Part shown: positions 1-20,000 of the stretch, in pieces
Position numbering within the stretch: position 1 is the stretch's first letter
Layout: each line of letters starts with the position of its first letter
DNA from: Rhizaria sp. SCN 62-66
Lineage: Eukaryota
Reading direction: 5' to 3'
Length of the DNA stretch: 20,000 nt
NCBI GenBank assembly: GCA_001724265.1
Contig: MEDY01000123.1
Span: 56,784 to 76,783 of the forward strand
Translations under genes and position numbers: made by a program
The notes under the pieces: generated by a model
What the model saw: only the letters and a program-made list of their open reading frames with translations
Told to the model about the DNA's origin: nothing
Database searches by the model: none

Positions 1-1580
1 TGCACGCGGCCGCCCTGGGGCGGGATCGACTGCGTCAGCGTCATGCCCAGCGTGTCCACCAGCTTGTTGTTGCCGGCGCCGTTGCTGCCACTGTTGTCGA
101 GCAGGCCTGCGCCGCTGGTGTTGGTGCCGACCGGGGACGCGAACGGGTCCTGGGTCGGGTCCCACGCGCTCGCCACCGCCACGGCCGCGGTATTGCCGGT
201 GGACTCGGCGTCCTTCGGTGCAGCGGGGTCCGCGGAGTAGGTGTCGTTGGCGTTGTGGGTGTCGTTGATGTCGATGTCGATGAAGTCCTCCGGAATGTCT
301 TCATCAATAGTAGCCTTGCCCGCCGCGGGCGCGGACTCGGGGCCAGCAGCGGCCGCACCGGGCTCGCCGTGCGCGACGGCGTCGTCCTCGTCGTCGTCGA
401 GCAGCGAGCGGCCCGAGGCCCCGAACGCCGACGACTGGCGCGAAGCACGGTTCTTGCCCCTGCGCCCGCCGACGCTCACAAATCCACCTGCGGCGGCCCC
501 GAAATCATCTTCCGCGTCCGCGCCTGCGTCGGCCTCTGCATCGGCCCCCGCCACGGCCTCAGAGACGGCCTCGGACCCGGAGCTGCCGGCGGCGGCGGGC
601 TTGGCGAGCGGGAGCAGCCCGCGCGAGGGGGGGAACGACGCAGCCGACGCCGCCACGACGGCAGCGCCAGAGTGGTCGTCGTCACGCGCGGTGACGCCGG
701 CGACGGCGGCCGCGAGCTCGGCGTCGTCGACGGTGGCCGCGCTGGCGTCGGGCTCGTCATGCGCGCTGCCGCTCGCAACCGCGGCCGCGTTGTCGGCGTT
801 CGCACTGCTGTTGGCGTTGGTGTTGCTGTTTGTGTTGGCGCTGGCGTTAGGGCGCGTGACCGAGACGGAGCGCGTGGTCGAGGGGCTGTGGCTGCCGGGG
901 GCCGAGGCGGAGCCGTTGGTGAGCCCCATCATCGCAATCCCGTGAACGGCCGTGATGATCTGCGTCAGTACGGGCGGCTCCTCCAGCGCGCTGGGTGCGA
1001 ACGTCTCCGCCTCGTTGCCGTTGCCGTCAGCAGCAGCAGTAGCGTCATCTGCGTTGGCACTCGCACTCGAGGGCTCGAGAAAGGAAAACTGTGGGACGAT
1101 GGCCTTGCGCTGCGTGAAGGCGTGGTTGGCGAGGTTGGCCTCGGTGACGAGCACGGACCAGGTGTGGTCGAGCTCGTACGCATCGCAGAAGTCCTTGATG
1201 AGCGAGAGCACCAGTTCGTCCATGGGCGACTCAAGCAGCCGCCGCTGCAGCTGCGTGCGTGGCGGGAACGGGCCGTTAATCGGGTCAAAGTCGGCGGTGT
1301 TAACTGCACGGTGGATCGAGGCGCGGATCTGTGCCTGTGTACAGGTGTGTGGTTGTGCGTGCAGAGGTGCGGGAGTGGGAACAGTGAGTGGAGTGGTGGC
1401 AAGAACTGACATGAACGGTTGAGAGTGAGGGGTAATAGTGACGTCAATGTCCGTCGCTAACCAAGTAGATATAAAAAGGTAATTGCCAGAAATAGCACGC
1501 ACCTTGATAGAAGACAGCACACCGAGATGGCCCAAGGATTCCACAACGAGTCCCTTGAGCTCGTCCCCGGTGTCGGCCAT
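1..1580 (-). CDS. CEP43: CEP43/FGFR1OP (FOP)-like centrosomal protein with N-terminal TOF/LisH region, 3'-partial; exons 1580-1503 and 1334->1 (runs off window)
   Basis: The spliced translation MADTGDELKGLVVESLGHLGVLSSIK|AQIRASIHRAV...LVLSLIKDFCDAYELDHTWSVLVTEA matches the FOP/FOR20/OFD1 N-terminal pattern (ELxxLVxxxLExxGVLxxIKAQLRAxV plus LisH). Phase-0 intron 1502-1335 (GTGCGT...ACACAG). Exon 2 stays open to the window edge, so it is absent from the ORF track, and has an Ala/Asp-rich low-complexity tail. The length favours FOP over the short FOR20. Confidence 0.75.
   Translation of the reverse strand, partial: MADTGDELKGLVVESLGHLGVLSSIKVRAISGNYLFISTWLATDIDVTITPHSQPFMSVLATTPLTVPTPAPLHAQPHTCTQAQIRASIHRAVNTADFDPINGPFPPRTQLQRRLLESPMDELVLSLIKDFCDAYELDHTWSVLVTEANLANHAFTQRKAIVPQFSFLEPSSASANADDATAAADGNGNEAETFAPSALEEPPVLTQIITAVHGIAMMGLTNGSASAPGSHSPSTTRSVSVTRPNASANTNSNTNANSSANADNAAAVASGSAHDEPDASAATVDDAELAAAVAGVTARDDDHSGAAVVAASAASFPPSRGLLPLAKPAAAGSSGSEAVSEAVAGADAEADAGADAEDDFGAAAGGFVSVGGRRGKNRASRQSSAFGASGRSLLDDDEDDAVAHGEPGAAAAGPESAPAAGKATIDEDIPEDFIDIDINDTHNANDTYSADPAAPKDAESTGNTAAVAVASAWDPTQDPFASPVGTNTSGAGLLDNSGSNGAGNNKLVDTLGMTLTQSIPPQGGRV
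1335..1502 (-). other. Spliceosomal intron (168 nt) in the CEP43-like gene
   Basis: AAG|GTGCGT...TACACAG|GCA; splicing joins SSIK to AQIRAS in frame. Confidence 0.85.
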
Positions 1581-2093: not shown

Positions 2094-3327
2094 ATGCCTG
2101 TTGATCCCAACGCTCCTCGCAAGGCCAAGACGACCAAGGGCCAGCGCGTGCTGGACAACCGCGCGCCGAAGCTGACGGAGAACGAGAAGAAGTGCATCTT
2201 CGTCCGCGGCCAGACGTGCTCGGACCTCATCTCCAAGTCCATGACGGACCTCTGCGCGCTCAAGAAGCCTGAGTCGAAGATGCTGTCGAACAAGAACCCG
2301 ATCCGCCCCTTCGAGGACGCGACTTCGCTCGAGTTCCTGACGCGCGTCAACGACTCGTCGCTCTTCTGCTTCGGCTCCCACTCCAAGAAGCGCCCGCACT
2401 CGCTCGTCTTCGGCCGCACTTTCGACTTCCAGATCCTGGACATGCTCGAGTTCCAGATCGACCCCTCGACGTTCAAGACGATGCAGGACCTGTCGAAGGA
2501 CCGCGAGACGACGTCGCGCATCGGCGCCAAGCCGCTCTTCGTCTTCATCGGCGACCAGTTCACGCACGCCGAGGACATGCGCACCTTCCGCTCGCTGCTG
2601 CTCGACATGTTCCACGGCATCGACGTCTCCAAGACCAACCTTGCCGGGCTCGACCGCGTGATCATCATCACCGCCACGGTCAACCCCTCGGACATCACCA
2701 AGAAGGTCGTCTACTTCCGCCACTACAACGTACGTCACTACGCTTTGCTTTCTTTCGAGAGTGTTTGCACGTGTTTAATCGGATATATCATGTCATTGAT
2801 ATATTAACATGCCAAAAATTCATATAACGTACGACAACATTATCATTTCTCACATCTTGCTCCTTGAACTCTAATATTTTGTTACGCTTGCATCTACACT
2901 TGCACAGGTGCTGAAGAAGAAGTCCGGCACGCGCTTCCCCCGCGTCGAGCTGGAGGAGGTGGGCCCGCGCATGGACCTGACCTTCAACCGCTCCTCGTCG
3001 GGCTCGCTGGAGATCCGCAAGGAGGCGCTGCGCGTGGGCAAGGGCGCCACGATGGCCAAGCGCAAGAACGTCGAGATTGGCCAGATGGGCCAGCTGCTCG
3101 GCCGCGTCCACATGCAGAAGCAGAACCTGGACGAGATCGCGCTGGCCAAGCTCAAGGGTCTGGGTAAGCGCGTCAACACGGGGGCCAAGCGCACGCTGCC
3201 GCGCGACGCGCCCGAGCCCGGCGCGCAGCTCTCGGACGACTGGAAGGTCGTCGCCGGCGACGCGCAGAGCAAGAAGCGCTCGCGCATGCTGCCCGCCGCA
3301 TACGCCAACTCTGTCATCTCGGAGTAA
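2094..3327 (+). CDS. RPF2: Ribosome production factor 2 (Brix domain); exons 2094-2729 and 2908-3327, about 351 aa, stop TAA
   Basis: Diagnostic motifs: KAKTTKGQRVLDNRAPKLTENEK, NPIRPFEDATSLEFL, SLFCFGSHSKKRPHSLVFGRTFDFQILDMLE, FRHYN|VLKKKSGTRFPRVELEEVGPRMDL, GRVHMQKQNLDEIALAKLKGL. Confidence 0.96.
2730..2907 (+). other. Spliceosomal intron (178 nt) in RPF2
   Basis: AAC|GTACGT...CTAAT...TGCACAG|GTG, AT-rich, phase 0, restores the Brix C-terminal motif. Confidence 0.92.
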
Positions 3328-4087: not shown

Positions 4088-6259
4088 ATGTTGCACCCTG
4101 CAGGCTCGGCCGTTGCCTCCAGTCCGGTCCCGGAGCTGTCCCCGTCGTCGTCCTCGCACAGCCACGCTGACCCCGACGTGGCCGCCGCCGCCGCCGCGAA
4201 CGCTGACGCCGTCGCTGCGAGCACGGTGATCCCCGCGTTGCCCGCGTCGGTGTCGGAGACGACTGAGACGGCTGCCGTGAAGCTTGTGCACAGTCTATCG
4301 CTGTCCCGCCACAACAGCAACGCGTACGCGCACAGCCACAGCCACGGCCCGAGCCACACGTCGTCAAGCGCCAATCTGAGCAGCAACGGCAACTACGCTG
4401 CCGACGCTATTGGCGCCAGCGGTGGTGTGCACAGCGCCTACGCCCACGCTAACGCTGGCGTTGGCGGCCCTATTGCTGAAGCGTACGGCGGCAACGACAC
4501 GGACGCCGAGTCCACTGACGGCCACACGGTCACCGTCACCTCGGACGACCCCAGTCTCGCTGCGGCCGATGCCGCCGACAGCGCGGACGGGGCCGGTCTG
4601 AGCGGCGAGCACAAGCCGATGCCGCCGGACTTAGCATCGCACGTTGTGCTGCTCAAGGTGCTGTACTTTCTGCAGGGCATGTCCGCGGCGTCGTGGGGCC
4701 GCTTTGGCACGATTTACTACCTCTCGCGCGGGCTCACGCGGTTCGAGATCGGCATCATTGAGGGGCTCATCCCGTCGATCACGATGTTCGCGTCGCCGAT
4801 CTGGGGCATCGTTGCCGACAAGCTGCACTCGCGCAAGAAGGTCGCGCTCTTCACGCAGTCAGTCTCGGTCTGCATCCTCTGTCTGCTCGCGTTTCCCGCG
4901 CTGGCGAGCGGCTTCGAGTCGATCCTGGCCATCTCGATGCTCATGGCCGCATTCGTGTCCTCGGGCATCCTCGACGCGCACACGCTCGACGTGTTGGGCA
5001 AGGATTACTTCTACGCCTACGGGCCGATCCGCATGTGGACCTCAATCTCGTGGGGCATCGGCGCGCTTTTCCTGGGCTTCCTCACAGACTCCTTCTCAGT
5101 CTACTCCATCTTTGTCGTCTATGCTATCCTCGCCACCACCTCGATCGTGGCCACATCGCGCGTTGTGCCCGAGCAGACGCACAACGAGGCGCGCCGCGCC
5201 GTGGGGCCGCCACCGCAGCTCTCGGCGCTTTTCCGGGCACTCACGCGCCCGCGCATGCTCTTCTTCCTGTTCTAGATCGCGCTCTTTGGCGCCGGCATGG
5301 CCGTTGTTGAGCGGCTGCTCTTCATCTACCTGCGCGACGACCTGGGCGCCAGCAACTTCCTCTGCGGGCTCACCGTTACCGTCACGGTTATCTTCGAGCT
5401 GCCTATCTTCATGTACGCCGACCAGCTGCTCAAGCTCTTCGGGCACCATGGCATGTTCTTGATCGCCATGGTCGCGCACACGGTCCGCGTTTTCCTCTAC
5501 ACGCTGCTCACGCGCGAAGCCGTCTACGCGATCCTGCCGATCGAGATCACGCACGGCATTACCTTCGCGTGTATGTGGACCGCGGCAGTCGAGTACGCCA
5601 AGATGGGCGTGCCCGAGGAGTGGTCCTCAGCCGCGCAGTCGATCCTCGCCGCCACGCTCGGCTGCGTCGGCGCGGGCGTCGGCTCCATTCTTGGCGGATA
5701 CGTCATGGACCGCTACGGCGCCATCGCGCTCTACACGGGCACCGGCATCATCGGGCTCTGCACCATCGCCATGCACCTCGCCTTCCACCTCGTCACCAAG
5801 ATCATCGACGAGGGCGCCGCCGACGGCCGCCACAGCGGCGGCGCGGGCGCGGGCGAGCTCGACGACGGCGTCACACTCGACGGCATCGACGTTACGATAA
5901 GCGGCAGCGCCAGCCCCGCTGCCGCCGACGGGGTGGGCGTGTCCAGGGCCGCCGCATTCGCGGTCGCCGAGACCATTGACGGCGGGGGCAGCGGCGGCGG
6001 TGTCGGCGCTGGCGGCGGGGTCCGCGAGCAGGTGCCTGTCGGACTGGCCGCGGCACCCGCTGCTAGCGGCTACAGCAAGTACAACGACGACAACGACGAC
6101 GACGGCGACGACGCGGCGGCGCGGTACAATGCACAGCACCAACAGCAGCGGCAACAGCAACAGCAGCAGCAGCAGCGGCAGCGGCGCACTGCGGGCGGCG
6201 CCGTGGAGATGGGCAGAGTGGGTGGGTACCGCAGCTAGTACGTGGCCGGAAGCAAGTGA
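4088..6259 (+). CDS. MFS transporter (MFSD6/MFS_1_like) with long low-complexity termini; single frame with in-frame TAG at 5273-5275 and 6236-6238, ending at TGA 6257-6259 if TAG is sense (about 723 aa)
   Basis: ORFs 4088-5275 and 5297-6238 are in the same frame and form the N- and C-halves of a 12-TM MFS. Motifs: LKVLYFLQG, GLTRFEIGII, SPIWGIVADK, YGPIRMWTSISWG, FELPIFMYADQLLKLFG, EITHGITFACMWTAAVEY, GAGVGSILGGYVMDRYG. GC3-rich codon usage continues across the TAG. Confidence 0.85.
6134..6181 (+). repeat. CAG/CAA poly-glutamine tract in the MFS C-terminal tail
   Basis: cag cac caa cag cag cgg caa cag caa cag cag cag cag cag cgg cag. Confidence 0.85.
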
Positions 6260-6610
6260 GCGAGTGTTCTCGCGGGAACCACTGTGGTCGTCGTGGGAAC
6301 ATATGGGTGTGGTGCTTAGTTCACCACAAGTTGTAGCCGGTAACATACTATTTCATCCATGGTTCCTGGCTGCTGCGAGCTTTATGATCTATGATCTCGG
6401 TCTGTGTTCACTCTTTCTGTCGTTTAACATATCGTTCATGATTAGGTTTGCTATTTAGAGTATGTTTTTGTATGTTTCTTGAATTTTCAAGGCTTGACTG
6501 TTTGCGCAATAAACTATTCATGTCAGCCCACAATGCGAGTACGTAATTACATTGTACGTGTACAAGTACTGTACAATGCATATGTGTACAGTCGGCAAGT
6601 TGACACTAAA

Positions 6611-9459
6611 TCAGAGTTTTTCGCTTTCAAGACGGACAAAATTAATGCTCGACGGATAACATCCTGTGCACGAAGCGTAACGTTCTGCGCACGAGCGAAC
6701 CGCATCGAATTGCGTAGCTAAAATCGAGTCAAATGACCTATAATCTTGTGGGGATGCATCATGAGCGTACCGCGCGGTTCCAACAGGTACTGCACCAGGG
6801 ATCGTGCTTGCGTTCATCGGATAAAACACGATAAAGAAAAGACTAGAAAGAGTGTTCGCGCGGGGAAACACGGTGAATGGTGACACAAGCACGGTACCGG
6901 GTGGGTACACCGTGTCCCTAGCCGGTGCCTTGTGCTCGCCAAACACAGTGTCCTTTAGGATACGGCCGAGAAACGCACCATCTTCGCAATGGTTGCAAAT
7001 TACCGCGAATGGAGTTGTTGAACGACTTGTTTCTGACGTTCGGATACATGTATGTAGCGATGTGCCAAGCGCTCGATTTGATGCTGCATTCCGGAAGTGG
7101 GCAGCGTGACAAGGAAACTTTACATCGTCAAGGCGAATCCGCAGATGAAAGTGAAAAGTGCCCGCGTGGCTCTGCAAATTGATACTCATTGTGACATCGC
7201 GATAAACAAGGCAGAGTGTGCGCGCATGAGCAATAATGTGATTGCGCGCCCTCCTCTGGAAAGTCTTCAATGCATACTCCGTCATTGCATCTTCAGAGCG
7301 CGCTATCAGATCGGCAAGCGGGAGAGTTGTTCGTGAAAATCTTTGCGCCTTGAGACTTTGCACAAGATGAGATTCAAAAACGCGCTGCCATAGATTTTGC
7401 CAAAAGTAGTTCACAAATGCCAAGCTCTCAGCATCAAACATCTGGAACGCGCGCGATTGCTGAAAAACATCCGGAAACGAAAAGGTGCATCGGGCATGCA
7501 CAGCACGGCCGCAACTGCTCTTCGTTTCGCATGGATCGTTTTTCGCAGCGGCGCTATCAGAAAGTTCAACGAATCGTCCAATTACAAAGACTGTCGTGCG
7601 CTTCGAGGAGTCACAGAGCCACAAAGACGATGAAACAGTGCTCGCAGTTGCAGGCAAAGTCACAGTCTCAGTAACACCACGTGTTTCAGCTCCGCTGTGA
7701 GTCTGAACAGTGTTATCGTGTTGCCCGGTCGAAGGTGAAGATAGTTCAAAGGTCACGTTAACGCGACCGAACGTGAAACATTCGTTCTCACGTTTATACT
7801 GCACAGCAGCATCAATTTGCGGCAATGACGAAGATGAAACCGCTGCTTCGTCAGCCTGCGATGGCGATGATGAATGCACACTTGTGACGATCCTGGTGAA
7901 AGTGTTTACGCTCGAGTTCGCGTTGTTCATCCCAGCCTCAGACTCGCTGTTCAAGTCATCATCGGTGTAAAACTCAATCAACTCCTGAACAACAGTGTCA
8001 CGCGCCCCAATCTTGTCATAGCTGGCTGCAAGGTTATCGTCCATGCTCGCTTCGACTTCACACACAAGAGCACAATCACATGGGACGGCAGCGACAATGC
8101 TTGCATCAGAAACCCCCTCGACAGCGGTGTGAGGTTGATCCTCCGCAGCGACAGAAATCATTGGTGACTTCCCACATCCGCAGCCGCGGCGGACACGGCA
8201 CTCAAACGTCACCCCGCATAGCTCGGCAACACCCAGCTCAACCGGCGCTGCGCTAGGAACCAGAGCTGAAAGCGGCACGTCGCCCTCGCAAACAACCTCG
8301 CGAGGGGCAAGTGCAGCTGCCGCGTCCGCAAGCGCGCTCTCAAGAGCGGCGCGCGCGGCCGTCCAGCGCTCTCGACCCACAGCAAGCGGGGGGTCGACGC
8401 GCGCGGGCCAGCCAGGGCTCGCGGCGGCAAGTGCGGAGAGCTCGGGGATGGTGGGCGCGGCGACCGAGGCCGCGATCGCGGCGAGTTCCTTGCGCGCGGC
8501 CGCAAGGCCGGTCTGCTCGCGGGCCGCAGACCGGGAGGCGTACGCGGAGGCACGAGAGAGAAGCGCGGCGAGCGGGCCCATGGCGTCTGCGGCGAGCGTT
8601 TCCGCGCGGACCTGTGTCAATGCGAGCAGGGCGGTTGAGTCACGCTGCAACTGCGCCATGGACTCCGTTTGGTCCTTGATAAAAGTTAAAAACAAATTGT
8701 GAAAAAGAAGCGCAAGATATGAGTCAGTCTTCAGGATTAATCTCCATTTCGATAAACTATAACTGTCGATTTTAAGCTATGTCGAGACACGTACGTTGAT
8801 TTTGCGTTCGAAGTTGTCGAGTTGCGGCGGCAGCTGCGCGGCACGGCTCTTGATCTCAGCATCAACGTCGACAATCATGCGGCATTTGTGGCCGAGGTGC
8901 TACGCGTTGAGTACTGCGCACTGGTGGCAAACAGGGGTGATGCAATCGCTGCACCAGTTAAGGAAGAGCACTGGGGTCGCGTGCGAGTGGCAATACTGAA
9001 TAAAGCATCACGGAAACACATGTCATGTAAGCGCGGATTGGAAACTCTTCAGGTTATTCATAGGTTGGGGTAAACAGCATTTCGGAATACGTTGCGAGAC
9101 GTACGTTGATGTCGTCGGAGGCAATTGCCGTAGTGTTGGGCTGGCTAGCAGCAATCACAGCTGCTGCAGCAGGAGCAACTGGCACTGTCGGTGTTGGTGT
9201 TGTGGTATCAGAGACAGGCGCATGGGTCTGACTCTCAGCCTGAGAGGTGTAATTAATTACATTACAGCCAGATACATTGAGTATTATGGGATGAGAGATT
9301 AGCCTGGAAATGTGATGAATGCAGTACAGACCAGAGATCTGGGGCGAAGCGAAGAGGCATACGTACAGCAAAGCAAGCTGCGCAAATTCGACCGTTCGAT
9401 GCGGCGCCCGTCATATGCGCACCACAAAACAAACACTTCTTGACCAGAACTGTCGACAT
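6611..9459 (-). CDS. Zn-finger + B-box + coiled-coil (TRIM-like) protein with unknown C-terminal region; exons 9459-9367, 9239-9105, 8995-8795 and 8674-6611; in-frame TAG at 8902-8900; about 830 aa; stop TGA
   Basis: Exon 1 has CLFC...CAAC. Exon 3 reads YCHSHATPVLFLNWCSDCITPVCHQCAVLNA*HLGHKC, the B-box2 pattern C-x2-H...C-x2-C-x4-C-x2-C-x6-H-x2-H. A helical/coiled-coil segment follows (EIKSRAAQLPPQLDNFERKIN|DQTESMAQLQRDS). Three phase-0 introns all start GTACGT. Confidence 0.78.
8675..8794 (-). other. Intron 3 (120 nt) of the B-box gene
   Basis: ATCAAC|GTACGT...TTTTTAACTTTTATCAAG|GAC, AT-rich, phase 0, joins the 6611-8695 ORF frame. Confidence 0.78.
8996..9104 (-). other. Intron 2 (109 nt) of the B-box gene
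   Basis: ATCAAC|GTACGT...CTTTATTCAG|TAT TGC CAC, phase 0. Confidence 0.82.
9240..9366 (-). other. Intron 1 (127 nt) of the B-box gene
   Basis: GCT|GTACGT...CTCTCAG|GCT, phase 0. Confidence 0.75.
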
Positions 9460-10143: not shown

Positions 10144-12514
10144 TCAAATATCGTCATCACTGTCCGCAGCAACTGCGTCCGCGCGTACGCTCGCGGCGCG
10201 CGCGGCCCTCTCTTCGATTGCACGCAACGCGGCGTCCAGCGCAGCGTCGCTGTCAACGGGAGGCTTAGCTTTCTGATCAAGAGGGGCGTCGTCGTCGTCG
10301 CTTGCATCGTTGTGATCATCGCCATGCACCTCGTTGCCGTTGCCATCGCCAGAGGCACGCTCGGCCTGACTCACCGAGTCGGTGGGGGCGCTGGAGCTGT
10401 CGGGGTGCTGTGTTGCACTCGCACGCGCAGTGCTGATGTCGGACTTGCTGTCTTGCTGCGATTCAAGCCAGTCACCAAACGCCTTTAGCCGCTGCTCCTC
10501 CCCCTCGTTCTCGTTCTCGACCTTGTAGTTCGTCTTGCCGTCGAAATACACACAGCGCAGCCGGCGCAGCGGCTTCGCTACAACGCCATGACTCGCACCA
10601 GTAGCACTGCCCTCGGTCGAGTTTGCCGTCGCGCGCACGTCTGTGTTAGCGTCATCTGTGAAAATAATGTCGTCATTCGTGTTTCCAGTGATCGTCGACA
10701 CCACCTTATTGTTCAGCAGACGAATGCACGCCGCAGCCGCGTGTCCCGTGCGGAACTGGATCACGACGGGGCCCTCGAAGTTGCCCGGAAACACGGTGAG
10801 CTTGGCCACCGCGCCGCACTTGGCCTCGACCAGCGCCCGCACGCGCGCGCGCACGCCCTCGTAGTACGCCGCGGCGTCGCCGCTCGCCACTGCGACGTCA
10901 GGCGAGTACGCGTTCAGCAGCGAAATAATGCGGGGGCCCGGGCCAGCACTGCCAGCGCCGCCGGCGCCAGCACCGGCCGCACCGCCCTCGGCGGCGCTGC
11001 CGCTGCTGTCGGTGTTGTACGTCGTCGCGTCGTCGCCGCCGCCGCCCCACGACAGCGCCTGTGCCTGTGCGCGCGCGGCCAGCGACTTCTGCTGCCGCTT
11101 CATCACGAGCGCGGGCGCTCCGGAAGCGTTGTTCGCAGTGGCGTCAGTCACCGTTGCAGAGCCGGCGGGGCGGGCCCGCTTCGCTGCGCTGTCAATGTCG
11201 CCGTCCGCGCTCGCGCTCGCAGCGGTCCCCGTGTGTGCGTGGTCGTTGGCATCAACGGGGACGGACTTAGCGCTGAACTGCGCCCTGCACACAGCGACGG
11301 TGTATCCGGGCGCAAACTCGCGGCCGTCGAGAAAGCTCACCGCAAGGTCGACCGACTCGGCCTTGGCGTAAAAGACGAGCGCCTCGCCCTTAAGCTGGCC
11401 GGCTCGCTCGTGGCCGGCGCGGTGGCGGTAGAGCTTGATGCGCGGCAGCCCCAGCTCGTCAACCTTAAGCACGCCCGCGCGCGCCGCAAAGTCGGCCACG
11501 GCTTCGGGCATCAGCTCGTCGCCGTCCTCGCCCACCACCGGCAGCCCGGTGATGAAGACCGTCGTCTTGCCCTGTGTCGCCGACAGCAGCACTTTGTTCT
11601 GTTCGTTGTGGTTGCCTGCATCCGCGTTGCTGTCGCTGTTGCTCGGGCCGGCGCCGGCAGTCTGCGCTGTGCGCTTGCGGAGGCGCGACTCGCGGTTGCG
11701 CTCGCGCTTGGCGAGCTGCTCGGGGGTGAGGTCGGCGTCGGCCACACCGCGGCCGGCGGCGACGGCGGGCATGCCACCTGCACCGCCGCCGCTGGCGCCG
11801 CTAGAAGAGACTGCAATCGACGCATCTGTCGTCGCATTGGGCATGCTGGAAGAGCCGGACGCCTGTGCAGCAGCAGTGTTCGAAGCGCTAGGGCCAGCAG
11901 CGTGGAGTGCAACTGGGTCAACAGCTGCAGCTGGGGCAGGAGCAGTGATTTGGGGGTGTGAGCTGTACGGCTTCCAACCTGCATAAAGCAACGAATCAGA
12001 AGTGAGTTCAAAAATATATGCAAGTGTTAGTCGTATAAAATGAAAAATAATGTGCAAAACAGTTGGTTTTCTTCTTATTAGACTTGACATGAGGGAAGAA
12101 GTGCGAAGTAGTTGCGTCAGTATCGAGTTGGTTGTTGTAAGACGTACCGACAACAGCCTTTGTCCAAACCAGAGTCTCATCTCCAATCATCCCCGCGGCG
12201 CGGAATCCCTTTATGTCGTCGCGTGCAAACGGTCCCTGCTTAATGCGCATGGAATCCATGTAAAACCAGGGCTCTGCACCGACGGCAGACAGCGCGCTAA
12301 GCATGGGCGTCAGGTCTGCGATCGTGGTGAGAGCGGCCCAGTCTGCAAGTCCGTTGCGCCAGCAGTACGTCTCTTGAGTGACCTCGCCAGACGCAAAGAA
12401 CCACAGAAGATCTGTGCCGCTAACGGGGCCGCGCTGTGTCTTGCGCGAGTCGAAGAAGTGCCACACGATGGCCTCGGCGGGCACAGTTGCAACCGAGGGT
12501 ATCTCCGCGGACAT
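10144..12514 (-). CDS. HTATSF1: U2 snRNP-associated splicing factor Tat-SF1/CUS2 homolog with two N-terminal GYF_2 domains; exons 12514-12148 and 11978-10144, about 733 aa, stop TGA
   Basis: RRM1: TTVFITGLP...AGVLKVDELGLPRIKLYR...GQLKGEALVFYAKAESVDLAVSFLDG...RAQF. UHM: IISLLNAYSP...CGAVAKLTVF...EGPVVIQF...AAACIRLLNN, then YFDGKTNY and EEQRLKAFGDWLE. GYF_2: WHFFD...QRGPVS...ETYCWRNGLADW and WFYMD...QGPF...DETLVWTKAVV|GWKP. Confidence 0.9.
11979..12147 (-). other. Spliceosomal intron (169 nt) in the Tat-SF1 gene
   Basis: GTC G|GTACGT...TTTATGCAG|GT TGG, phase 1, completes the GYF_2 motif VW....GWKP. Confidence 0.9.
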
Positions 12515-12828: not shown

Positions 12829-15200
12829 TCACCACTGCGCTTGCTGCACCGCGTTACTGACAACAGTGCGCTGCAGCGCAGAGCGTTGCGTACTCTGCAT
12901 CTGCACCTGCGAATTAGGCTTATCACAATCACCGCGGCTACCACACATTGCTGCACTCTTAGTCGTCCGGTCAATACCGTGGTTATCGCGCGCGCGCCGT
13001 TGTGTGGCCGACCTCTTGACGCTGCTACGCGACTGTGTCTGCGCAGTATCAGAGGTGCGACTATTTGTGACAGTAGAGTATGAATGCGGCATCAGCGCGT
13101 CCACAGGCAGCCCAAGCGCCCTCGCAACAGCCTCCGCGGCGCCGCCCTCGGCCCTGACGCTCTGAGCGCCGGTCTTCGCAGACTCGGCGGCGACGGAACC
13201 AGTCTTGGCACCTATGCCCCGCGCACTAGCAGCAGCCCTGCTCGTGTGACTGAAGCCACCGTTTGCGGCGTTGATGCTGTGGGCGCGCGAGGCCGCTGGA
13301 AACGCGGCGCCGCCGCGGGCAGACGACGGCCTCCGCGCGCGCGTCTGCATCAGAGCGGTGTGCAGCCCGTCAGCGATGCCGGACTGACTGTGGCCAAGAT
13401 TGTGACCATGAGAGTGAGCAGCGGCTGCAGTGCCGACAGACTGGCTAAAAGCAAACCCGTCAGTGTGGCCGTGGAGATGGGCGTTGGTGGGGACGCTCAC
13501 GCCCCCAACGCTCCACCCTTCCTCTGCAGCAAACTGGCCGTGATCGTGGCCGCGACCGTGGGCAAACGCGGCGCTCATCGACGCGAAACCGTGACCGAGA
13601 GCTGCAGTGCGGCCGCCCATTGGCGCAGACAGAGTCGTCGACAGCGGCACAGACAGCGGAGACCAGGCCTCCGTCGCCGCACTCGTCTCGCTCGCCTCGT
13701 CCTTGCCCATGTGTCCCATGTGGCCCCGGTGCGAGCGACCGTGCGCGCCTGCACCGGAGTGACCGTGGGCCGCGTCGGCAGCGACTTGCGCGGCGAGCGC
13801 GCGCTCCGAGGCCGTGGGGCGCGCGCCGCCACGCGCGGACCGGGCGAGGTCGAAGCTGCGGCCGTTGAGCCGGCCCAGCGCATGTGCGGCCGCGGCGAGG
13901 CGGGCCGGAACGACGACGCCGCCGCCGAGTCGAGGGTGTGCAGCGTGCGCGCAAACTGCTGCTGCTCGTGCTGTTGCTTCTGCTGCCCGCACTCGCTTGA
14001 GCTAGCGGCCAAGGCGGTGCTGTGAAAACTGCGACTTGTCGCAATGCTGCTGTTGTTGACAATGGTGCTAAGGGCTGCAGAAAGCTGGCCTGTCGCGGAC
14101 AGTTGGGCCGCGGCTGCGGCCAGCGGCGCCTGCGGCCTCCACAGCAGCGGCGGCTCGGTCTGGCCCGTGACGAGGCTTAACTTCGAGACGGCGACACCGG
14201 TGCCCGCGTTGCTGACCTGCGCAAACGCGACGGACCGCGCGGAGGTCCAGTAGTCCTTATGTCCTGCGCCGGTGCCACTCTGGTCAGCACCCCCCGCCCC
14301 CGCGAGCGCGCAGAGCCCCACAGTGGAGGCAGCTTGCTGTGCGAAAGCGGCCGCGGCGGCGCGTTTGGCGGCCTTGTCGGCGGCCTCCGCGGCGGCACGT
14401 GCACGCGCGGCCTGCGCGGCGGCGGCGGCGGGCGTGGCGAGGCGCAGCGGCGCGCCGGCGGCAAGCGCGGGCACGGCGGGCCCGTCGGCCGTGCGCGGCG
14501 GCGGGTCGCGGTACGGCTCCGCGGCCGAGGACAGCAGCGGCGCGACGTAGGCCCCCGCCAGCGTCCGCGTGCGGTCCAGCGGCGCGCACGTCGCGGGACG
14601 GTGGTGCCGGCGCATGCCCTGCGCGCGCGCGGCGGCGTGCACAGCAGCGGGGCTCACAGCGGCGGCGTCCGTGGATAGGGGGTCTGCGACTGTGAGGGGT
14701 GGGCGGGAGAGGCGCACGGCTGCCTCGATGCGCTCGCGCTCGGTCTTGGGCCCGAAGCTCAGCGAGAGCTGCATCTCCATCTCGCGGATGCGCGGGCGGA
14801 AGTCCGGGACGGCGACCGGCGGCACCCAAGGGTCCGCTGCTGCAGTGACGTGCGCGGGTTGTGCAGACGAGGATGTCGAGGACGATAGAGACGTCGAGGC
14901 GACGAACGCAGTCGCAGGGCGCGCGGGTCCAAAAGCCGACTTACCCAGCGCGGATGCAACGTGAAAGTTCATCGGGTGCGGGTGCTGTGGGGCATCCACA
15001 GGAGCGTCTTCGGCTGCGGCAGCGGTAGAGGCGGAGGCGAGCTGCTCAATGCGCGTTGCCGCGGAGGGGGCGACGTCGTGGAGCCACTTCTCGACGCGTG
15101 CATAGCTCCGCAACGCCAAAGCATCACGCGAAGGGGAAGAACATGTCGCAGACCGAGCTGTACCGCGGCCCGGGTAGGCCGGAGGACTGGAGGGGAGCAT
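12829..15200 (-). CDS. Hypothetical Ala/His-rich protein (about 790 aa) with an apparent 1-nt frame switch near 13896
   Basis: Coding-like GC3 bias lies in the 13575-15269 frame down to about 13896 and then moves to the 12829-13992 frame. Likely start is ATG 15200, downstream of TTCACAG. Stop is TGA 12831-12829. No family recognised. Confidence 0.6.
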
Positions 15201-15748
15201 CCGAGAGACGACGGAAAAGGGTGCGAGAAACGGCTGTGAAGTGAGGAGAAACATAAAATCAGGGTTCAATAGGTGTGTGTGAGCCGTTTACAGGATTCGA
15301 TCAGTCCCATCCATGATGAGAACATCAAGTAATTGTACGTGTCTCGCGAACAAGCGAAGTCAATATGGCTGAAGAGCGCTGTAATCGATTGAAGGTGGGA
15401 TGATGGACGGAGACTGGATCAAGAGAGATGTCGTCGAAGATGCTCAAAAACAGTGCTGGAAAACAGCGTTCCCATCGGAGGATAGACATGTAGTAAAGCA
15501 CTAGAAGGAATCAGTCATAGGAATAATATAATCTATTTTTCACATTACGGGAAAGTGTCTATGTCTCGCACAGTACTTCATCTCAAGATCACCGCACCGC
15601 CGCGCAGTTGACCGTTTACGATTCACTTGTGGTCATCGAACTTGTTCTTTGGATATCACGTCTAAACAGTCACAACAATGAACATCTATGCACTATATTT
15701 CACTTACAAGTTAATTTCTTTGCATTCTCGTGTTTTTAATTTCATAGG

Positions 15749-18132
15749 ATGTCCAAGGCGTCTCTCCTGAGTGCGTTTATGGACGACGCCGAGAGCGACG
15801 AAGAGCAGTCGCAGCAGCAGTCACAGCAGCTCTCCGGCGTCCCTACGGTCAAGCCTGAGGGTGTCACATCGAACTATGATACTAACATTGGCCCAACTAT
15901 TGCCCCAGCGTTCTTCAGTGGTACGATCGGTCCGGCTGCAGCTCCTACAGCTTCGTCCTCCTCTTGTGCCAACGGTCACAACACGAGCGCGAACGTTTCG
16001 GCCGTGACCGCGATCATCGAGAGCCCCGAGTTCGTGGCCCTGCTGGCGGACCTTGACGCTGCCGATGCTGCTGACGCCGAGGCTGCGGCCGCGCTGGCTG
16101 CCGCAGAGATGGCCAAGCTCGACTCCCGTATCCCGGGCCTCCACGGCAGCAACGCCAATAAAGACTCCTCGGACTCGAGCTCGAGCAGTGACTCCGACTC
16201 CGACTCCAGCAGTGACAGCAGCGACAGTGACGACGACAAGCCGCACCGGATCCCGCTCCCGCCCGCGACCGCCTCTGCGGCGGCGGCCTCGGCGCTGGTC
16301 TCCCGCGCCAACGCCCAGCTGCGCCGGCTCGACGATGAGCTGGCCGTGGTGCACCGCGCGCTCCAGGCCGCCTTGCGCCCGCTGCACCCCGAGCTGGAGG
16401 CGCTGGTGACAGAGCCCGACGCGTTCGCGCGCACGGTCATTGCGCTGCTCCGCCGCGACCTCGCCGCCGTCGCCAACAGCGCCGCTGCAATTACCAGCAG
16501 TGACAGCGGCGTGAAGTCAGATGGCGCAAGTGCCGAGGCCGAGGCCGCTGCGGAGGCACTGGCGCGCGCGGCCGCGAACCCGGCGATCTCTGGCACGGGC
16601 GCTGGCAAGCTGCAGACTGAGCTCGAGACCTTCCTTCCGTCTTCGGTCGCGCTCGTCGTCGCCGTTACCGCGGCCGCCTCGGCCTCCACCTCGGCGCTCC
16701 TGCAGAACAACAGCGGCGGCACTGACGGCGCCGTGAACGGTGCAGCGGCGCCCGGCGGCAAGGTGGCCGCCGCGTCCTCGTTGTCTCCGCTGCCCGCGTT
16801 TAACCTTGCACTCTCGCTGGCGACCGCGGCGGCGACGCGCACGCGGCTGCAGGCGCTGCTGTCTTCGCGCCTGGCCGCCGTGGCGCCCAACCTCACGGCA
16901 CTGCTGGGCGGGCCGCTGGCAGCGTCGTTGGTTGCGCTTACGGGCTCGGTCCGCGCCCTCGCGCTGGTGCCGTCGTGCAACATCCAGGTGCTCGGCGCCC
17001 GCCGCGGCGCGCTCGTGGGCACCTCCGCGGCCAGCGCCGACCTGCACACCGGTGTCATCGGCGGCGCCGCGCTGCTCGAGGGCGTGCCGAAGCAGGTGTA
17101 CCGGCGCGCGGTGCGGCAAGTTGCCGCCAAAACTGCGCTCGCGGCGCGCGTGGACGCTGCGGGGACGTGCGCCAGCGGTGACAGGGGCCGCGAGATGGCC
17201 GAGGACATCCGCGCGCGCGTGCGCCGCTGGCTGGCGCCGCCAGAGACGCGCAACATCAAGGCACTGCCGCGGCCGAACGAGGGGCCCAAGAAGAAGCGCG
17301 GCGGGCGCCGCTTCCGCAAGCAGAAGGAACGGACTCGGCAAACCACGCTCGCGAAACAAAAGAACCGACTCGCGTTCGGCGGCAGCGAGGTCGTGGACGA
17401 CTTCACCGGCGAGGGCATGGGCATGGTCGGCGCCGGCGGCGACGGCCTTGTCATTAAGGGGCTAGGCGGCGACGCGGGCGGCCAGCGCGTGCAGGACCAG
17501 CTATCGAAGAAGATGAAGGCCAGGTACGTGTGTTTAATGGCTAAAACGCAAAGATACAGTTGCGACCGGCGGTATACTATCTATTTTATATTTCTTCATG
17601 TTGGTCAATTGTTTGTTTACTCATTACTCTTTCGCTAGCTCACTTTCCCTTCGTTTTATCATTTCGTCATTGTTTACATGCACTAAACTACAGGTTGGCT
17701 GGTGGCAAGCAGCTGACTGGCGCGGCGGCCGTCTTTGGCACTGTCACTGGCACTGGCGGTGGCGCCAGCGCACTGCACGGCCAGGGCAACGCCGCCGCTG
17801 CCGCTGAGGTCGAGGAGGGGCCGACCTTCGTCATCCTCAAGGCTGCGCCAAGCACTGCCAACAACAACGCCTCCTCCGCGAGCGGCACTGCAATCACTGC
17901 AAGCGCTGCTGGTGCTAACAGGGACTACTTCGGTGTGGGCGTGAGCAGCAGCGTCGGCGCCGGCGTGCACGGGTCCTCCGACCACGGCCAGGGTCACAGC
18001 CAGGGCCAGGTCAAGCGCGCCGCCGGCGAGGCCGCCGCGGGGGCGGGCGCGGAGACGGAGGCCGAGGCGCGGGCGGCCGAGATGGCCGCGAAGCGCGCGC
18101 GCATCCTTGCGAATTCGAGCCTGTTCAAGTGA
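15749..18132 (+). CDS. PRPF31: U4/U6.U5 tri-snRNP protein Prp31; exons 15749-17523 and 17694-18132, about 737 aa, stop TGA
   Basis: NOSIC-like HPELEALV. Nop domain VAPNLTALLG...LALVPSCNIQVLGA...HTGVI...RRAVRQVAAKTALAARVD. NLS/C-terminus PPETRNIKALPRPNEGPKKKRGGRRFRKQKE...KQKNRLAFG. Confidence 0.93.
17524..17693 (+). other. Spliceosomal intron (170 nt) in PRP31
   Basis: AG|GTACGT...CACTAAACTACAG|G, AT-rich, phase 2, joins the 17560-18132 ORF frame. Confidence 0.88.
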
Positions 18133-18765: not shown

Positions 18766-20000
18766 ATGAGTTCTCTCACCTCAACGCCTGCCCCCGCTGC
18801 GCGCTCCACCTCCAACACCACGGCCCCCGTCGCGGCCACCACCGGCGCAGCCGCCGCACCGGCCGCCGCGTCATCCTCGGCGTCTGCCTCGACCGGCAGC
18901 GGGCTGGTTGCGCCCGCCACTGCGTCCAAGCCGAAGCTCAGCGCCACCGCATCTGTGTTCACGCCATCGACGCTCCGCGTCGCCGCCGTGTCCTTCACGC
19001 CAGGCGCTGCGCTCACACGGCCCGCCTTCCACATGCCCGCTCCGGCCGCGACCCCGGCCGCCGCCTCAGTCTTTGCCGCGCCTGTCACAATTGGCGCGGG
19101 GGCGGCGGCGGGCCCTCGCGCGCATTTGTCAGCCGCCACGCCCCACAATCACCACACCAGCTCGAGCTCGAGCTCCGGCGCAAGTGACCCGTCACGCACG
19201 CTTAAGTTCTCCCCGTCAATGGGGCCCGCGTCGGCGCCGGCGTTTTTGCCCTCGGCGTCGTCCGCCTTTGCGCCCACCTCGGCCAGCTTTGTCCCCGCAG
19301 CGGCCTCGTCTATTTCCGCCGCCGTCGCCGCGGCGCCCTGGCAGCCCTCCACGTCGTCGTCCTCTTCGTCGTCGTCCGCCTACGACCACCACTACCACGA
19401 CGCGGGGCGGGGCGAGGATGAGTATTCGTGGGACTTCCTGTTCGACGACGACTACGTGCCGCCTTACAAGGACGCGTCGGTCATCACATTCTCGATCGGC
19501 GAGCTCTACTTCGACTTCGACCTGGCCGGCATCGACCTGATCTCACCCAAGCCCGAGGGCATCCCCGACTTCCTTGACGTCAACAGCCCGGCCTCCAAGG
19601 CGTGGATCGCCACGCGCAGCACGCTCCGCCGCCCGCGCAAGAACCCCACCGGCAGCGGCGGCAGCGCCCATGGTGGCGGCGGCAGCACCCACGGCGGCTC
19701 TGGCGCGGGCTACAGCGGTGGCGTGTCGGCGAAGCGCGAGAGCGGCGGCAGCGGCCGGCACGGCGCCGGCGGCAGCAGCAACAGCGAGTCAAGCTACAAC
19801 AAGCTGCGCGCGGCGCGCCAGGCCCGCTACGCCGCGCTCGACGCCGAACTGGGCCGCGCGCCCGCCGGCCGCCCCGGCACGGGGGGCTCCGGCGCCGGAG
19901 GCTTCGGCCGCGGCACCAGCGGCGGCGGCAGCAGTGGCCGCGGCGGCTTCGGTGGCGGCCGCGGCGGCGCCGGCAGCGGCCGCGGCGGCCGCGGCGGGGG
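18766..20000 (+). CDS. eIF4G-like or eIF4E-binding translation regulator, N-terminal part (PAM2 motifs, YxxxxL-phi motif, RGG box); 3'-partial
   Basis: Open frame from ACCATG at 18766 to the window end (absent from the ORF track): KPKLSATASVFTP and STLRVAAVSFTP (PAM2-like), EYSWDFLF (4E-binding consensus), then GRGGFGGGRGG...RGGRGG. Confidence 0.65.
   Translation, partial: MSSLTSTPAPAARSTSNTTAPVAATTGAAAAPAAASSSASASTGSGLVAPATASKPKLSATASVFTPSTLRVAAVSFTPGAALTRPAFHMPAPAATPAAASVFAAPVTIGAGAAAGPRAHLSAATPHNHHTSSSSSSGASDPSRTLKFSPSMGPASAPAFLPSASSAFAPTSASFVPAAASSISAAVAAAPWQPSTSSSSSSSSAYDHHYHDAGRGEDEYSWDFLFDDDYVPPYKDASVITFSIGELYFDFDLAGIDLISPKPEGIPDFLDVNSPASKAWIATRSTLRRPRKNPTGSGGSAHGGGGSTHGGSGAGYSGGVSAKRESGGSGRHGAGGSSNSESSYNKLRAARQARYAALDAELGRAPAGRPGTGGSGAGGFGRGTSGGGSSGRGGFGGGRGGAGSGRGGRGG

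What the first reader, a model, noticed from the sequence alone, without database searches (positions are those of the whole stretch)
4088..9459. Candidate variant nuclear genetic code: UAG is sense, UAA/UGA remain stops
Seen: two unrelated neighbouring genes each carry one in-frame TAG inside a conserved domain (MFS helix 5273-5275; B-box 8902-8900). No internal TAA or TGA occurs in any gene model. The five clear gene ends are TAA (RPF2) or TGA (B-box gene, Tat-SF1, hypothetical, PRP31), and the only TAG 'end' is followed by an in-frame TGA 7 codons later. Known: UAA and UAG are usually reassigned together; UAG-only nuclear reassignment is rare (e.g. Iotanema spirale UAG=Gln, rhizarian exLh UAG=Leu, a few ciliates). 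Inference: this GC-rich protist may be an independent case. The residue must suit both FFLF-x-IALFG and NA-x-HLGH, so Gln (or Glu) fits better than Leu or Trp. TAG would be rare here if CAG/GAG dominate. The 3' contexts differ (ATC, CAC, TAC), which argues against a shared readthrough signal. Only 2-3 codons support this.
Basis: partly seen in the sequence, partly recalled or inferred. Interest (0 to 1): 0.92.

Follow-up and report, generated by a model that had tools for sequence, protein, structure and literature searches.

The report
Possible UAG-as-glutamate code in rhizarian
Two neighbouring genes of an uncultured wastewater protist carry a TAG "stop" exactly where their relatives have glutamate, which suggests, on only two codons, that this organism reads UAG as an amino acid.

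Summary
TAG 5273-5275 (+) lies in frame inside an unbroken MFS_1_like domain. TAG 8902-8900 (-) lies in frame in a B-box exon. An independent run carries both without a difference. The window comes from a wastewater or bioreactor metagenome. Its RPF2 groups with Guttulinopsis vulgaris, so the organism is a sainouroid-like rhizarian, the group that holds "exLh", where UAG encodes Leu.

New result: both internal TAGs sit on conserved glutamate. The column is E in 22 of 24 MFS homologues (Q in 2) and E in 4 of 5 alignable B-box homologues (Y in 1). No homologue has Leu. Two random nonsense hits would both start from GAG with probability about 0.014-0.053. Conservation after the MFS TAG equals that before it. 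No GAG allele was found, while the TAG-ended ORF stands on 6 contigs. All five clear gene ends are TGA or TAA.

Best reading (about 0.6): UAG is a rare sense codon for Glu, and UAA and UGA stay stops.

Caveats:
- Only two codons are informative.
- No tRNA, eRF1 or usable RNA evidence exists.
- The window does carry a 25-nt frameshift in a third gene.
- The third, "terminal" TAG (6236-6238) overlaps a consensus GTACGT splice donor and carries no weight.

The parts
4088..6259 (+). MFS_1_like (MFSD6-like) transporter gene, read through to TGA 6257-6259
   Evidence: Pfam PF12832 match with E 2.8e-59 over residues 188-549. GC3 is 0.87. Homologues are 37-73% identical.
5273..5275 (+). In-frame TAG no. 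1, at a conserved glutamate in a transmembrane helix
   Evidence: The alignment column is E in 22 and Q in 2 of 24 homologues. The closest (73% identical) has the same nine flanking residues on each side except one. X3 contigs are identical here.
6236..6238 (+). Third TAG, of unclear status: a stop, a sense codon, or a codon split by a 3' intron
   Evidence: Its G starts a GTACGT hexamer at 6238-6243, the hexamer that begins all 6 clear introns of the window. TGA follows at 6257-6259.
6611..9459 (-). B-box / coiled-coil gene with 4 exons (9459-9367, 9239-9105, 8995-8795, 8674-6611), ending in TGA 6611-6613
   Evidence: The model is 2493 nt with all junctions in phase 0. Exon 4 is 35% identical to P0161, E 7e-27. 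GC3 is 0.55.
8795..8995 (-). B-box exon 3 (201 nt)
   Evidence: PML B-box2 scores E 2.8e-5. Relatives P0155 and P0157 are ORFs of the same exon, and P0155 reads on into a GTACGT-type intron start at the same place.
8900..8902 (-). In-frame TAG no. 2, one residue before the first His of the C..C(6)H..H motif
   Evidence: The column is E in 4 and Y in 1 of the 5 alignable homologues. The X3 contig 7504-8933 is identical.
3325..3327 (+). TAA terminator of RPF2 (exons 2094-2729 and 2908-3327)
   Evidence: The C-terminus aligns to the last residue of P0034.
10144..10146 (-). TGA terminator of the GYF / Tat-SF1-like gene (exons 12514-12148 and 11978-10144)
12829..12831 (-). TGA terminator of the hypothetical gene
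18130..18132 (+). TGA terminator of PRP31 (exons 15749-17523 and 17694-18132)
   Evidence: Pfam Nop and Prp31_C matches.
13905..13907 (-). Site of a 25-nt frameshifting deletion in the hypothetical gene, relative to run X3 and protein P0173
   Evidence: X3 has 25 extra bases behind 13906. The intact 673-aa ORF P0173 spans both frames.

Best explanation
In this uncultured, GC-rich, sainouroid-like rhizarian, UAG is a rare sense codon that most likely encodes glutamate. UAA and UGA remain the terminators.

Shown:
- Two in-frame TAGs in two unrelated, otherwise intact genes.
- Both TAGs sit at positions where the relatives have Glu.

Inferred:
- A tRNA with anticodon CUA decodes the codon. It would derive from tRNA-Glu(CUC) by one anticodon change, as described for the ciliate PL0344.
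- eRF1 recognises UAG poorly.
- TAG codons arise from GAG by a first-position G-to-T change. They stay rare (2-3 in 5067 codons) because the genome strongly favours GC-rich codons.
For: 1. Both TAGs are in frame inside conserved domains of intact genes.
2. Glu stands at the aligned column in 22 of 24 MFS homologues (Q in 2). It also stands there in 4 of 5 alignable B-box homologues (Y in 1).
3. If these were random one-step mutations to TAG, both would start from GAG with probability 0.014-0.053, computed from the window's own codon counts.
4. Identity to the closest MFS homologue is 0.73 before and 0.71 after the TAG, so there is no decay downstream.
5. The TAGs are identical in contigs of another study's run, X3. 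No alternative letter is listed at either site in any of the 4 runs laid.
6. The protein search found no intact MFS allele; the best non-self hit is 73% identical. The TAG-ended ORF P0004 stands on 6 contigs, the same number as the RPF2 ORF P0033. For the frameshifted hypothetical gene, by contrast, an intact allele was found.
7. 0 of 5 clear gene ends is TAG: 4 are TGA and 1 is TAA.
8. TAG (3) is as frequent as the rarest sense codons: AGA 2, TTA 3, ATA 5.
9. RPF2 places the organism with Guttulinopsis vulgaris, support 97/95. In that rhizarian neighbourhood UAG is already known to have become sense once (exLh; PMC5304391, passages read).
10. A UAG=Glu assignment served by tRNA(CUA) genes most similar to tRNA-Glu has a precedent (PMC10553269, abstract and tRNA section).
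Against: - Only two codons are informative.
- GAG to TAG is a single-base change, so two nonsense mutations give the same picture.
- The window contains one undoubted lesion, a 25-nt frameshift in a third gene, which may be an allele or an assembly fault.
- X1-X3 are nearly identical, so 'six contigs' may represent one clonal population.
- Whether the more divergent X4 run covers the two sites is not shown.
- No tRNA of any kind lies in the window, and eRF1 is not available.
- The RNA run gave an unspliced contig and no usable evidence.
- Five gene ends without TAG is weak evidence: about 0.17-0.24 by chance if TAG made up 25-30% of stops, a share I assumed.
- All three upstream exons of the B-box gene are phase 0, so skipping the TAG exon would keep the frame.
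- A more distant relative (L004, 52% identical MFS) has two large ORFs that end in TAG. Any change is therefore recent and lineage-specific.
Confidence: 0.62

Rival explanations
1. Both TAGs are ordinary nonsense mutations (GAG to TAG) in a standard-code organism. They would be null or hypomorphic alleles, or very young pseudogenes, carried by a largely clonal bioreactor population.
For: - Each TAG is one base from GAG.
- The same window carries a 25-nt frameshift in a third gene, while an intact allele exists elsewhere.
- X1-X3 differ from the window by almost nothing, so fixation across 6 contigs may be clonality.
- The B-box gene has weak codon bias (GC3 0.55).
Against: - Two nonsense hits in adjacent genes, both TAG and both at conserved Glu, have a chance of 0.014-0.053 for the GAG origin alone.
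- There is no decay after the MFS TAG.
- No intact MFS allele appeared in a search that would have ranked it first.
- No variant contig is listed at either site in 4 runs.
- There is no internal TAA or TGA anywhere in 5067 codons.
Confidence: 0.17
2. UAG is still mainly a stop. These two sites are read by leaky suppression or programmed readthrough, or UAG has a dual, context-dependent meaning. This would be an intermediate stage of reassignment.
For: - In-frame TAG is very rare (2 in 5067 codons).
- The MFS ORF may end at a TAG (6236-6238).
- A distant relative uses TAG at ORF ends.
Against: - The three 3' contexts differ (ATC, CAC, TAC), and none is a readthrough motif that I recall.
- Near-cognate readthrough would not be expected to favour Glu columns.
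- Low-level readthrough would leave two conserved proteins scarce.
- The 6236 TAG overlaps a splice donor and may not be a stop at all.
Confidence: 0.1
3. UAG is a sense codon for another residue: Gln, or Leu, as in the related rhizarian exLh.
For: - Q occurs in 2 of 24 MFS homologues at the site.
- exLh, a sainouroid, uses UAG for Leu (PMC5304391).
Against: - Leu occurs in 0 of 24 and 0 of 5 homologues.
- Gln occurs in 2 of 24 and 0 of 5.
- Glu occurs in 22 of 24 and 4 of 5.
Confidence: 0.07
4. The codons never reach the ribosome as UAG. They are an assembly or sequencing artefact, or are removed by RNA editing or by skipping of the TAG-bearing B-box exon.
For: - The B-box exon 3 is 201 nt with phase 0 at both ends, so skipping it keeps the frame.
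- No usable RNA evidence was obtained.
Against: - Independent per-run contigs of X3 are identical over all three TAGs.
- The MFS TAG lies in the middle of a single 2.1-kb exon with no donor nearby.
- Relatives conserve the B-box exon.
Confidence: 0.03

Closest known systems
Rhizarian exLh (Sainouroidea): UAG = Leu, UAA and UGA are stops (Panek et al. 2017, PMC5304391; passages read)
   Same: Only UAG becomes sense, and UAA and UGA are kept as terminators. It lies in the same rhizarian neighbourhood: the window's RPF2 groups with Guttulinopsis, the sequenced relative of exLh. A 'Lygus hesperus' UniRef MFS entry, P0005, is 54% identical to the window's MFS. I infer that P0005 is an exLh transcript.
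   Different: The amino acid differs: Leu fits neither site here (0 of 24, 0 of 5). UAG is frequent in exLh (384 in 71 genes) but rare here (2-3 in about 8 genes). exLh rests on hundreds of codons and this case on two.
Oligohymenophorean ciliate PL0344: UAA = Lys, UAG = Glu, UGA is the stop (McGowan et al. 2023, PMC10553269; abstract and tRNA section read)
   Same: UAG is read as glutamate. That paper found ten tRNA(CUA) genes most similar to tRNA-Glu, which is the mechanism inferred here.
   Different: There UAA is also reassigned. Here TAA ends RPF2 at the homologous C-terminus, and no in-frame TAA occurs. PL0344 is a ciliate, not a rhizarian.
Iotanema spirale, and the phyllopharyngean ciliates Hartmannula and Trochilia (UAG = Gln) or uncultured TARA taxa (UAG = Leu) (PMC5304391; PMC11687900, abstract and introduction read)
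   Same: These are UAG-only reassignments with UAA kept as a stop, and some were found in metagenome-derived genomes.
   Different: The amino acid and the lineages differ, and reassigned UAG is in widespread use in those genomes.
Peritrich ciliates and Blastocrithidia nonstop: UAR = Glu (as summarised in PMC11687900, and in the abstract of PMC12153298 in the listing)
   Same: A former stop codon is read as glutamate.
   Different: Both UAA and UAG are reassigned there. Here UAA shows no sign of being sense.

Membership tests
UAG-only stop-to-sense nuclear code | In-frame UAG at conserved positions of several unrelated, otherwise intact genes, real in the DNA | tested here: met
   Two genes carry one: MFS_1_like and the B-box gene. 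Contigs of run X3 are identical. The sample is only n = 2.
UAG-only stop-to-sense nuclear code | UAG-aligned columns point to one amino acid | tested here: met
   E in 22 of 24 and in 4 of 5 homologues. There are only two columns, so this is weak as statistics.
UAG-only stop-to-sense nuclear code | UAG is not used as a terminator, and UAA and UGA are | tested here: inconclusive
   0 of 5 clear ends is TAG: 4 TGA and 1 TAA. The sixth, at the MFS gene, is ambiguous.
UAG-only stop-to-sense nuclear code | A cognate tRNA with anticodon CUA | not testable with these tools
   No tRNA lies in the window (ARAGORN; Rfam). No genome is held.
UAG-only stop-to-sense nuclear code | An eRF1 altered in stop-codon recognition | not testable with these tools
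   eRF1 is not in the window, and other contigs of the organism could not be fetched.
UAG-only stop-to-sense nuclear code | UAG present in mature mRNA and read through in protein | tested here: inconclusive
   A contig of the poly-A RNA run X6 at 17336-17571 is unspliced. Cover of the TAG sites is not shown.
exLh code (UAG = Leu) | UAG falls on conserved leucine positions | tested here: not met
   Leu occurs in 0 of 24 and 0 of 5 homologues at the two columns.
PL0344, peritrich or Blastocrithidia codes (UAA also sense) | In-frame UAA is used as a sense codon | tested here: not met
   No internal TAA occurs in 5067 codons. TAA ends RPF2 exactly where the relative P0034 ends.
Sainouroidea (Rhizaria), as the source organism | Groups with a named sainouroid in a phylogeny | tested here: met
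   In the RPF2 tree the window falls in a clade with Guttulinopsis vulgaris (97/95), and in a wider clade with Plasmodiophora (100/99). This is one gene with only two named rhizarians and no 18S.

The most novel reading that the evidence does not exclude
A free-living, wastewater-dwelling relative of Guttulinopsis and exLh reads UAG as glutamate while keeping both UAA and UGA as stops. I found this combination in no paper. It would mean UAG was captured at least twice, by different amino acids (Leu and Glu), within one small rhizarian group. That group would then be a second hot spot of UAG reassignment outside the ciliates. The rarity of the codon would also make this an early stage of a code change caught in nature.
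Probability: 0.55. Interest if true: 0.88.

Novelty: new variant of a known kind. Interest (0 to 1): 0.76.

Why it matters
Nuclear codes in which UAG and UAA differ in meaning are rare. They bear on why the two codons are usually coupled.

A UAG=Glu code with UAA and UGA as stops would be a new code table. If it lies next to the UAG=Leu lineage exLh, it would suggest that loss of UAG termination came first in this group. Different tRNAs would then have captured the free codon, which fits a codon-capture or ambiguous-intermediate route and can be tested directly.

The organism occurs in bioreactor and wastewater runs of several studies, so material for genome binning, RNA-seq and proteomics exists.

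There is also a practical point. Standard-code gene calling splits this organism's genes. The databases hold the MFS only as a truncated 395-aa ORF.

Tried and rejected
Access and database searches that gave nothing usable:
- Whole genome: none is held.
- The one metagenome-contig scan, with the MFS protein, returned only distant relatives: L001-L003 at 43-44% identity and L004 at 52%. It returned neither the window's own contig nor the contig of the 73% relative P0001.
- The genome-contig scan and two viral-contig scans found nothing.
- As a result, no further DNA of this organism or of a close relative could be read.

Read laying over the whole window at 90% likeness:
- The joint, loose-end and depth tables are dominated by GC-rich low-complexity matches from other organisms.
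- No splice joint appears among the 15 shown; 209 more were not shown.
- Cover of 5273 and 8900 by X4, X6 and X7 is not shown.
- The X6 'RNA' contig at 17336-17571 runs into the PRP31 intron.
- I therefore draw no conclusion on expression, on splicing, or on the TAGs in the 2025 strain.

Other searches that did not help:
- The Atlas search of RPF2 gave no useful taxonomy.
- In the PDB alignments of the B-box, Ser stands at the TAG column (PML, TRIM72), which is uninformative.
- Of the 10 hits of the B-box representative search, I dropped 5 before the count. P0159 is the window's own ORF. P0156, P0158, P0162 and P0163 have no C..C..H..H motif and cannot be aligned at the site.

Explanations considered and rejected:
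- An intron around the 5273 TAG. The TTCTAG there looks like an acceptor, but the domain match is continuous, the flanks are identical to P0001, and there is no GTACGT upstream.
- Selenocysteine or pyrrolysine. I rejected these from general knowledge and did not test them.

Correction of my own work: the 'HypA' row was in the wrong frame through my slip. One search replaces its counts.

Supplementary tables of the three papers were closed. Table S1 of PMC5304391 might show whether P0005 is an exLh transcript.

Full report
WHAT THE WINDOW IS

The window is a eukaryotic nuclear stretch. Exons are GC-rich (0.6-0.74) and introns and spacers are AT-richer. GC3 is 0.71-0.96 in most genes.

All 6 clear introns begin with GTACGT.

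No genome is held for the window. The stretch 4088-9459 is found in bioreactor, wastewater and activated-sludge runs. Eleven runs of 7 studies hold at least part of it. Four runs of 3 studies hold half or more of its words. It is therefore a metagenome contig of an uncultured protist.

The genes, from Pfam and my models:
- A FOP-dimer gene (3..1580, minus strand, cut by the window edge).
- RPF2/Brix (2094-2729 and 2908-3327, ends in TAA).
- An MFS_1_like transporter (4088-6259).
- A B-box/coiled-coil gene (9459-6611, minus strand, 4 exons, ends in TGA).
- A GYF/Tat-SF1-like gene (12514-10144, minus strand, ends in TGA).
- A low-complexity hypothetical gene (about 15254-12829, minus strand, ends in TGA).
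- PRP31 (15749-18132, one intron, ends in TGA).
- A gene that runs off the end (18766 onwards).

TAG 5273-5275 is codon 396 of the MFS gene. The Pfam MFS_1_like match runs unbroken through it (residues 188-549, E 2.8e-59). GC3 is 0.83-0.93 in the same frame on both sides.

TAG 8902-8900 is codon 108 of the B-box gene. It lies in a 201-nt exon flanked by phase-0 junctions. That exon matches the PML B-box2 (E 2.8e-5). The Pfam B-box model reaches only 16.9 bits against a cut-off of 24.1.

No internal TAA or TGA occurs in 5067 modelled codons. The five clear terminators are 4 TGA and 1 TAA.

Per-run contigs of X3, from another study, cover 4123-6133, 6191-7272 and 7504-8933 without a single difference. 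The TAGs are therefore real DNA, not an error of the source assembly. X3 is nearly identical to the window throughout. It is thus independent as to sequencing, not as to descent.

WHO IT IS

The nearest named RPF2 is that of Guttulinopsis vulgaris from EukProt (56% identical), followed by Plasmodiophora brassicae (48%).

In a maximum-likelihood tree of 28 RPF2 rows, the window falls in a clade of 8 with Guttulinopsis and environmental sequences (support 97/95). It also falls in a clade of 14 with Plasmodiophora (100/99). I chose the 28 rows from the 120 hits listed: the 14 named ones I selected and 13 environmental ones, plus the window's own. This is one gene with only two named rhizarians.

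Guttulinopsis is the sequenced relative of the 'rhizarian exLh'. exLh is a sainouroid found in Lygus hesperus transcriptomes, and in it UAG encodes leucine while UAA and UGA terminate (PMC5304391, passages).

One MFS homologue, P0005 (54% identical), is a UniRef entry labelled Lygus hesperus. I infer, without having tested it, that P0005 is an exLh transcript.

THE NEW EVIDENCE: BOTH TAGS SIT ON CONSERVED GLUTAMATE

I aligned the MFS domain with 24 of the 26 hits. The two left out were P0004, the window's own truncated ORF, and P0026, the weakest hit at 30% identity. The TAG column holds E in 22 and Q in 2. The closest relative, P0001 at 73% identity, has almost identical flanks.

For the B-box exon, an exhaustive search of 1.84 billion representatives gave 10 hits:
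- One is the window's own downstream ORF.
- Four lack the C..C..H..H motif and cannot be aligned at the site.
- The other five have E in 4 and Y in 1.

One of the five, P0161, also matches exon 4 (35% identity, E 7e-27), so these hits belong to the same gene family. The short ORF P0155 reads on past the exon end into residues that fit a GTACGT intron start at the same place as in the window. This supports the exon model.

Leu, the exLh meaning, occurs at neither column.

WEIGHING SENSE CODON AGAINST NONSENSE MUTATION

TAG can arise in one step from eight codons. With the window's codon counts, and transitions weighted 1 to 5 times transversions, the chance that a random hit starts from GAG is 0.12-0.23. 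For both hits together it is 0.014-0.053.

Further points favour a sense codon:
- Identity to P0001 is 0.73 before and 0.71 after the MFS TAG.
- The protein search would have ranked an intact allele first. It found none, while the TAG-ended ORF stands on 6 contigs, as does the RPF2 ORF.
- No alternative letter is listed at either site in the 4 runs laid. Cover by X4, X6 and X7 at those sites is not shown, however.
- TAG, with 3 occurrences, is as frequent as the rarest sense codons: AGA 2, TTA 3, ATA 5. That is what a recently captured, AT-leaning codon would look like in a genome with GC3 near 0.85.

Against this, the window is not free of lesions. In the hypothetical gene the reading frame changes near 13906. 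X3 has 25 extra bases there. An ENA-derived protein, P0173 (673 aa), reads straight through both frames. The window's allele is therefore frameshifted, either as a real variant or as an assembly fault. An intact allele turned up for this gene but not for the MFS, which is a mild point in favour of the TAGs being the normal state.

THE THIRD TAG

The 'terminal' TAG of the MFS gene is at 6236-6238, and TGA follows at 6257-6259. Its G is the first base of a GTACGT hexamer. That hexamer starts all 6 clear introns. Apart from mirror images of those donors, it occurs only about 7 more times on both strands of the window.

This TAG may therefore be one of three things:
- A stop.
- A sense codon.
- A codon split by a 3' intron. 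One possible acceptor, at 6335, would give two more codons and then TAA.

I have no RNA evidence and give this TAG no weight.

MECHANISM

Shown: in-frame UAG codons lie at Glu positions of two intact genes, and UAA and UGA stand at gene ends.

Inferred:
- A tRNA with anticodon CUA, charged with Glu, reads UAG but not UAA.
- That tRNA would differ from tRNA-Glu(CUC) by one anticodon base.
- eRF1 has lost or weakened its recognition of UAG.

Ten tRNA(CUA) genes most similar to tRNA-Glu were described for the ciliate PL0344, where UAG is Glu but UAA is Lys (PMC10553269).

The dominance of TGA among the stops here (4 of 5) fits a route in which TAG terminators had become scarce before capture. This is inference.

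A more distant relative, L004 (MFS 52% identical, GC 0.52), has two large ORFs that end in TAG. Any change is therefore confined to a narrower lineage.

COMPARISON AND NOVELTY

UAG-only reassignments are known for these cases:
- Leu in exLh and in uncultured phyllopharyngean ciliates.
- Gln in Iotanema, Hartmannula and Trochilia.

The sources are PMC5304391 and PMC11687900 (abstract and introduction).

UAG=Glu is known only together with a reassigned UAA. The cases are PL0344, and the peritrichs and Blastocrithidia as summarised and in the listing.

Four full-text searches returned no report of UAG=Glu with UAA kept as a stop, and no second sainouroid code. The library lacks most subscription journals, and supplements were closed.

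I therefore rate this as a new variant of a known kind.

VERDICT

- Confidence is about 0.62 for UAG = Glu and about 0.7 for UAG being translated at all.
- The main rival is a pair of GAG-to-TAG nonsense alleles, at about 0.17.
- Interest is 0.76.

Noticed in passing
window 13905-13907 (-), gene about 15254-12829: The hypothetical gene changes reading frame here. Run X3 carries 25 extra bases, and protein P0173 (673 aa, ENA) reads through both frames. The window's allele is therefore a 25-nt frameshift deletion, either a variant or an assembly fault.
   Followed up: yes
window 6236-6243 (+): The MFS gene's 'terminal' TAG overlaps a GTACGT hexamer identical to the start of all 6 clear introns. 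A 3' intron may begin at 6238; possible acceptors lie at 6319, 6335 and 6380.
   Followed up: partly
window 6611-8100 (-): The 3' two-thirds of the B-box gene's large exon has GC near 0.5 and no GC3 periodicity, unlike every other gene here (gene-wide GC3 is 0.55 against 0.71-0.96). Yet it stays open for about 500 codons. This could reflect low expression or a different history.
   Followed up: no
window 9459-8675 (-): The first three exons of the B-box gene are 93, 135 and 201 nt, all phase 0. Intron 3 (8794-8675) is 120 nt and stays in frame apart from one TAG. Two of the three donors share the extended form AAC|GTACGT.TCTCG.
   Followed up: partly
window 17336-17571 (+): A contig of the poly-A metatranscriptome run X6 runs 48 bases into the PRP31 intron. 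This points to unspliced RNA or DNA carry-over in that library.
   Followed up: no
protein P0005 (UniRef, labelled Lygus hesperus): This MFSD6-like entry is 54% identical to the window's MFS and ranks among protist sequences. It is probably a transcript of the rhizarian exLh that contaminates the bug's transcriptome, filed under the insect.
   Followed up: no
L004:9314-11389 and L004:11617-17970: This is a 112-kb JGI contig of a more distant relative (GC 0.52). Its MFS ORF ends in TAG with a second TAG 2 codons on. A 2117-codon kinase ORF ends in TAG with TGA 6 codons on. Its neighbours are TMC, ETF-alpha and RRM genes, so there is no synteny with the window.
   Followed up: partly
window 6134-6190 (+): A CAG/CAA (poly-Gln) repeat in the MFS tail, and Ala/Gly-rich GC repeats at 4180-4200 and 19950-20000, attract contigs of many other organisms. 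They inflate the depth figures in read laying.
   Followed up: no
window 15335-15340 (+): A further GTACGT lies 410 bases upstream of the PRP31 start codon. It is possibly a 5'-UTR intron donor.
   Followed up: no
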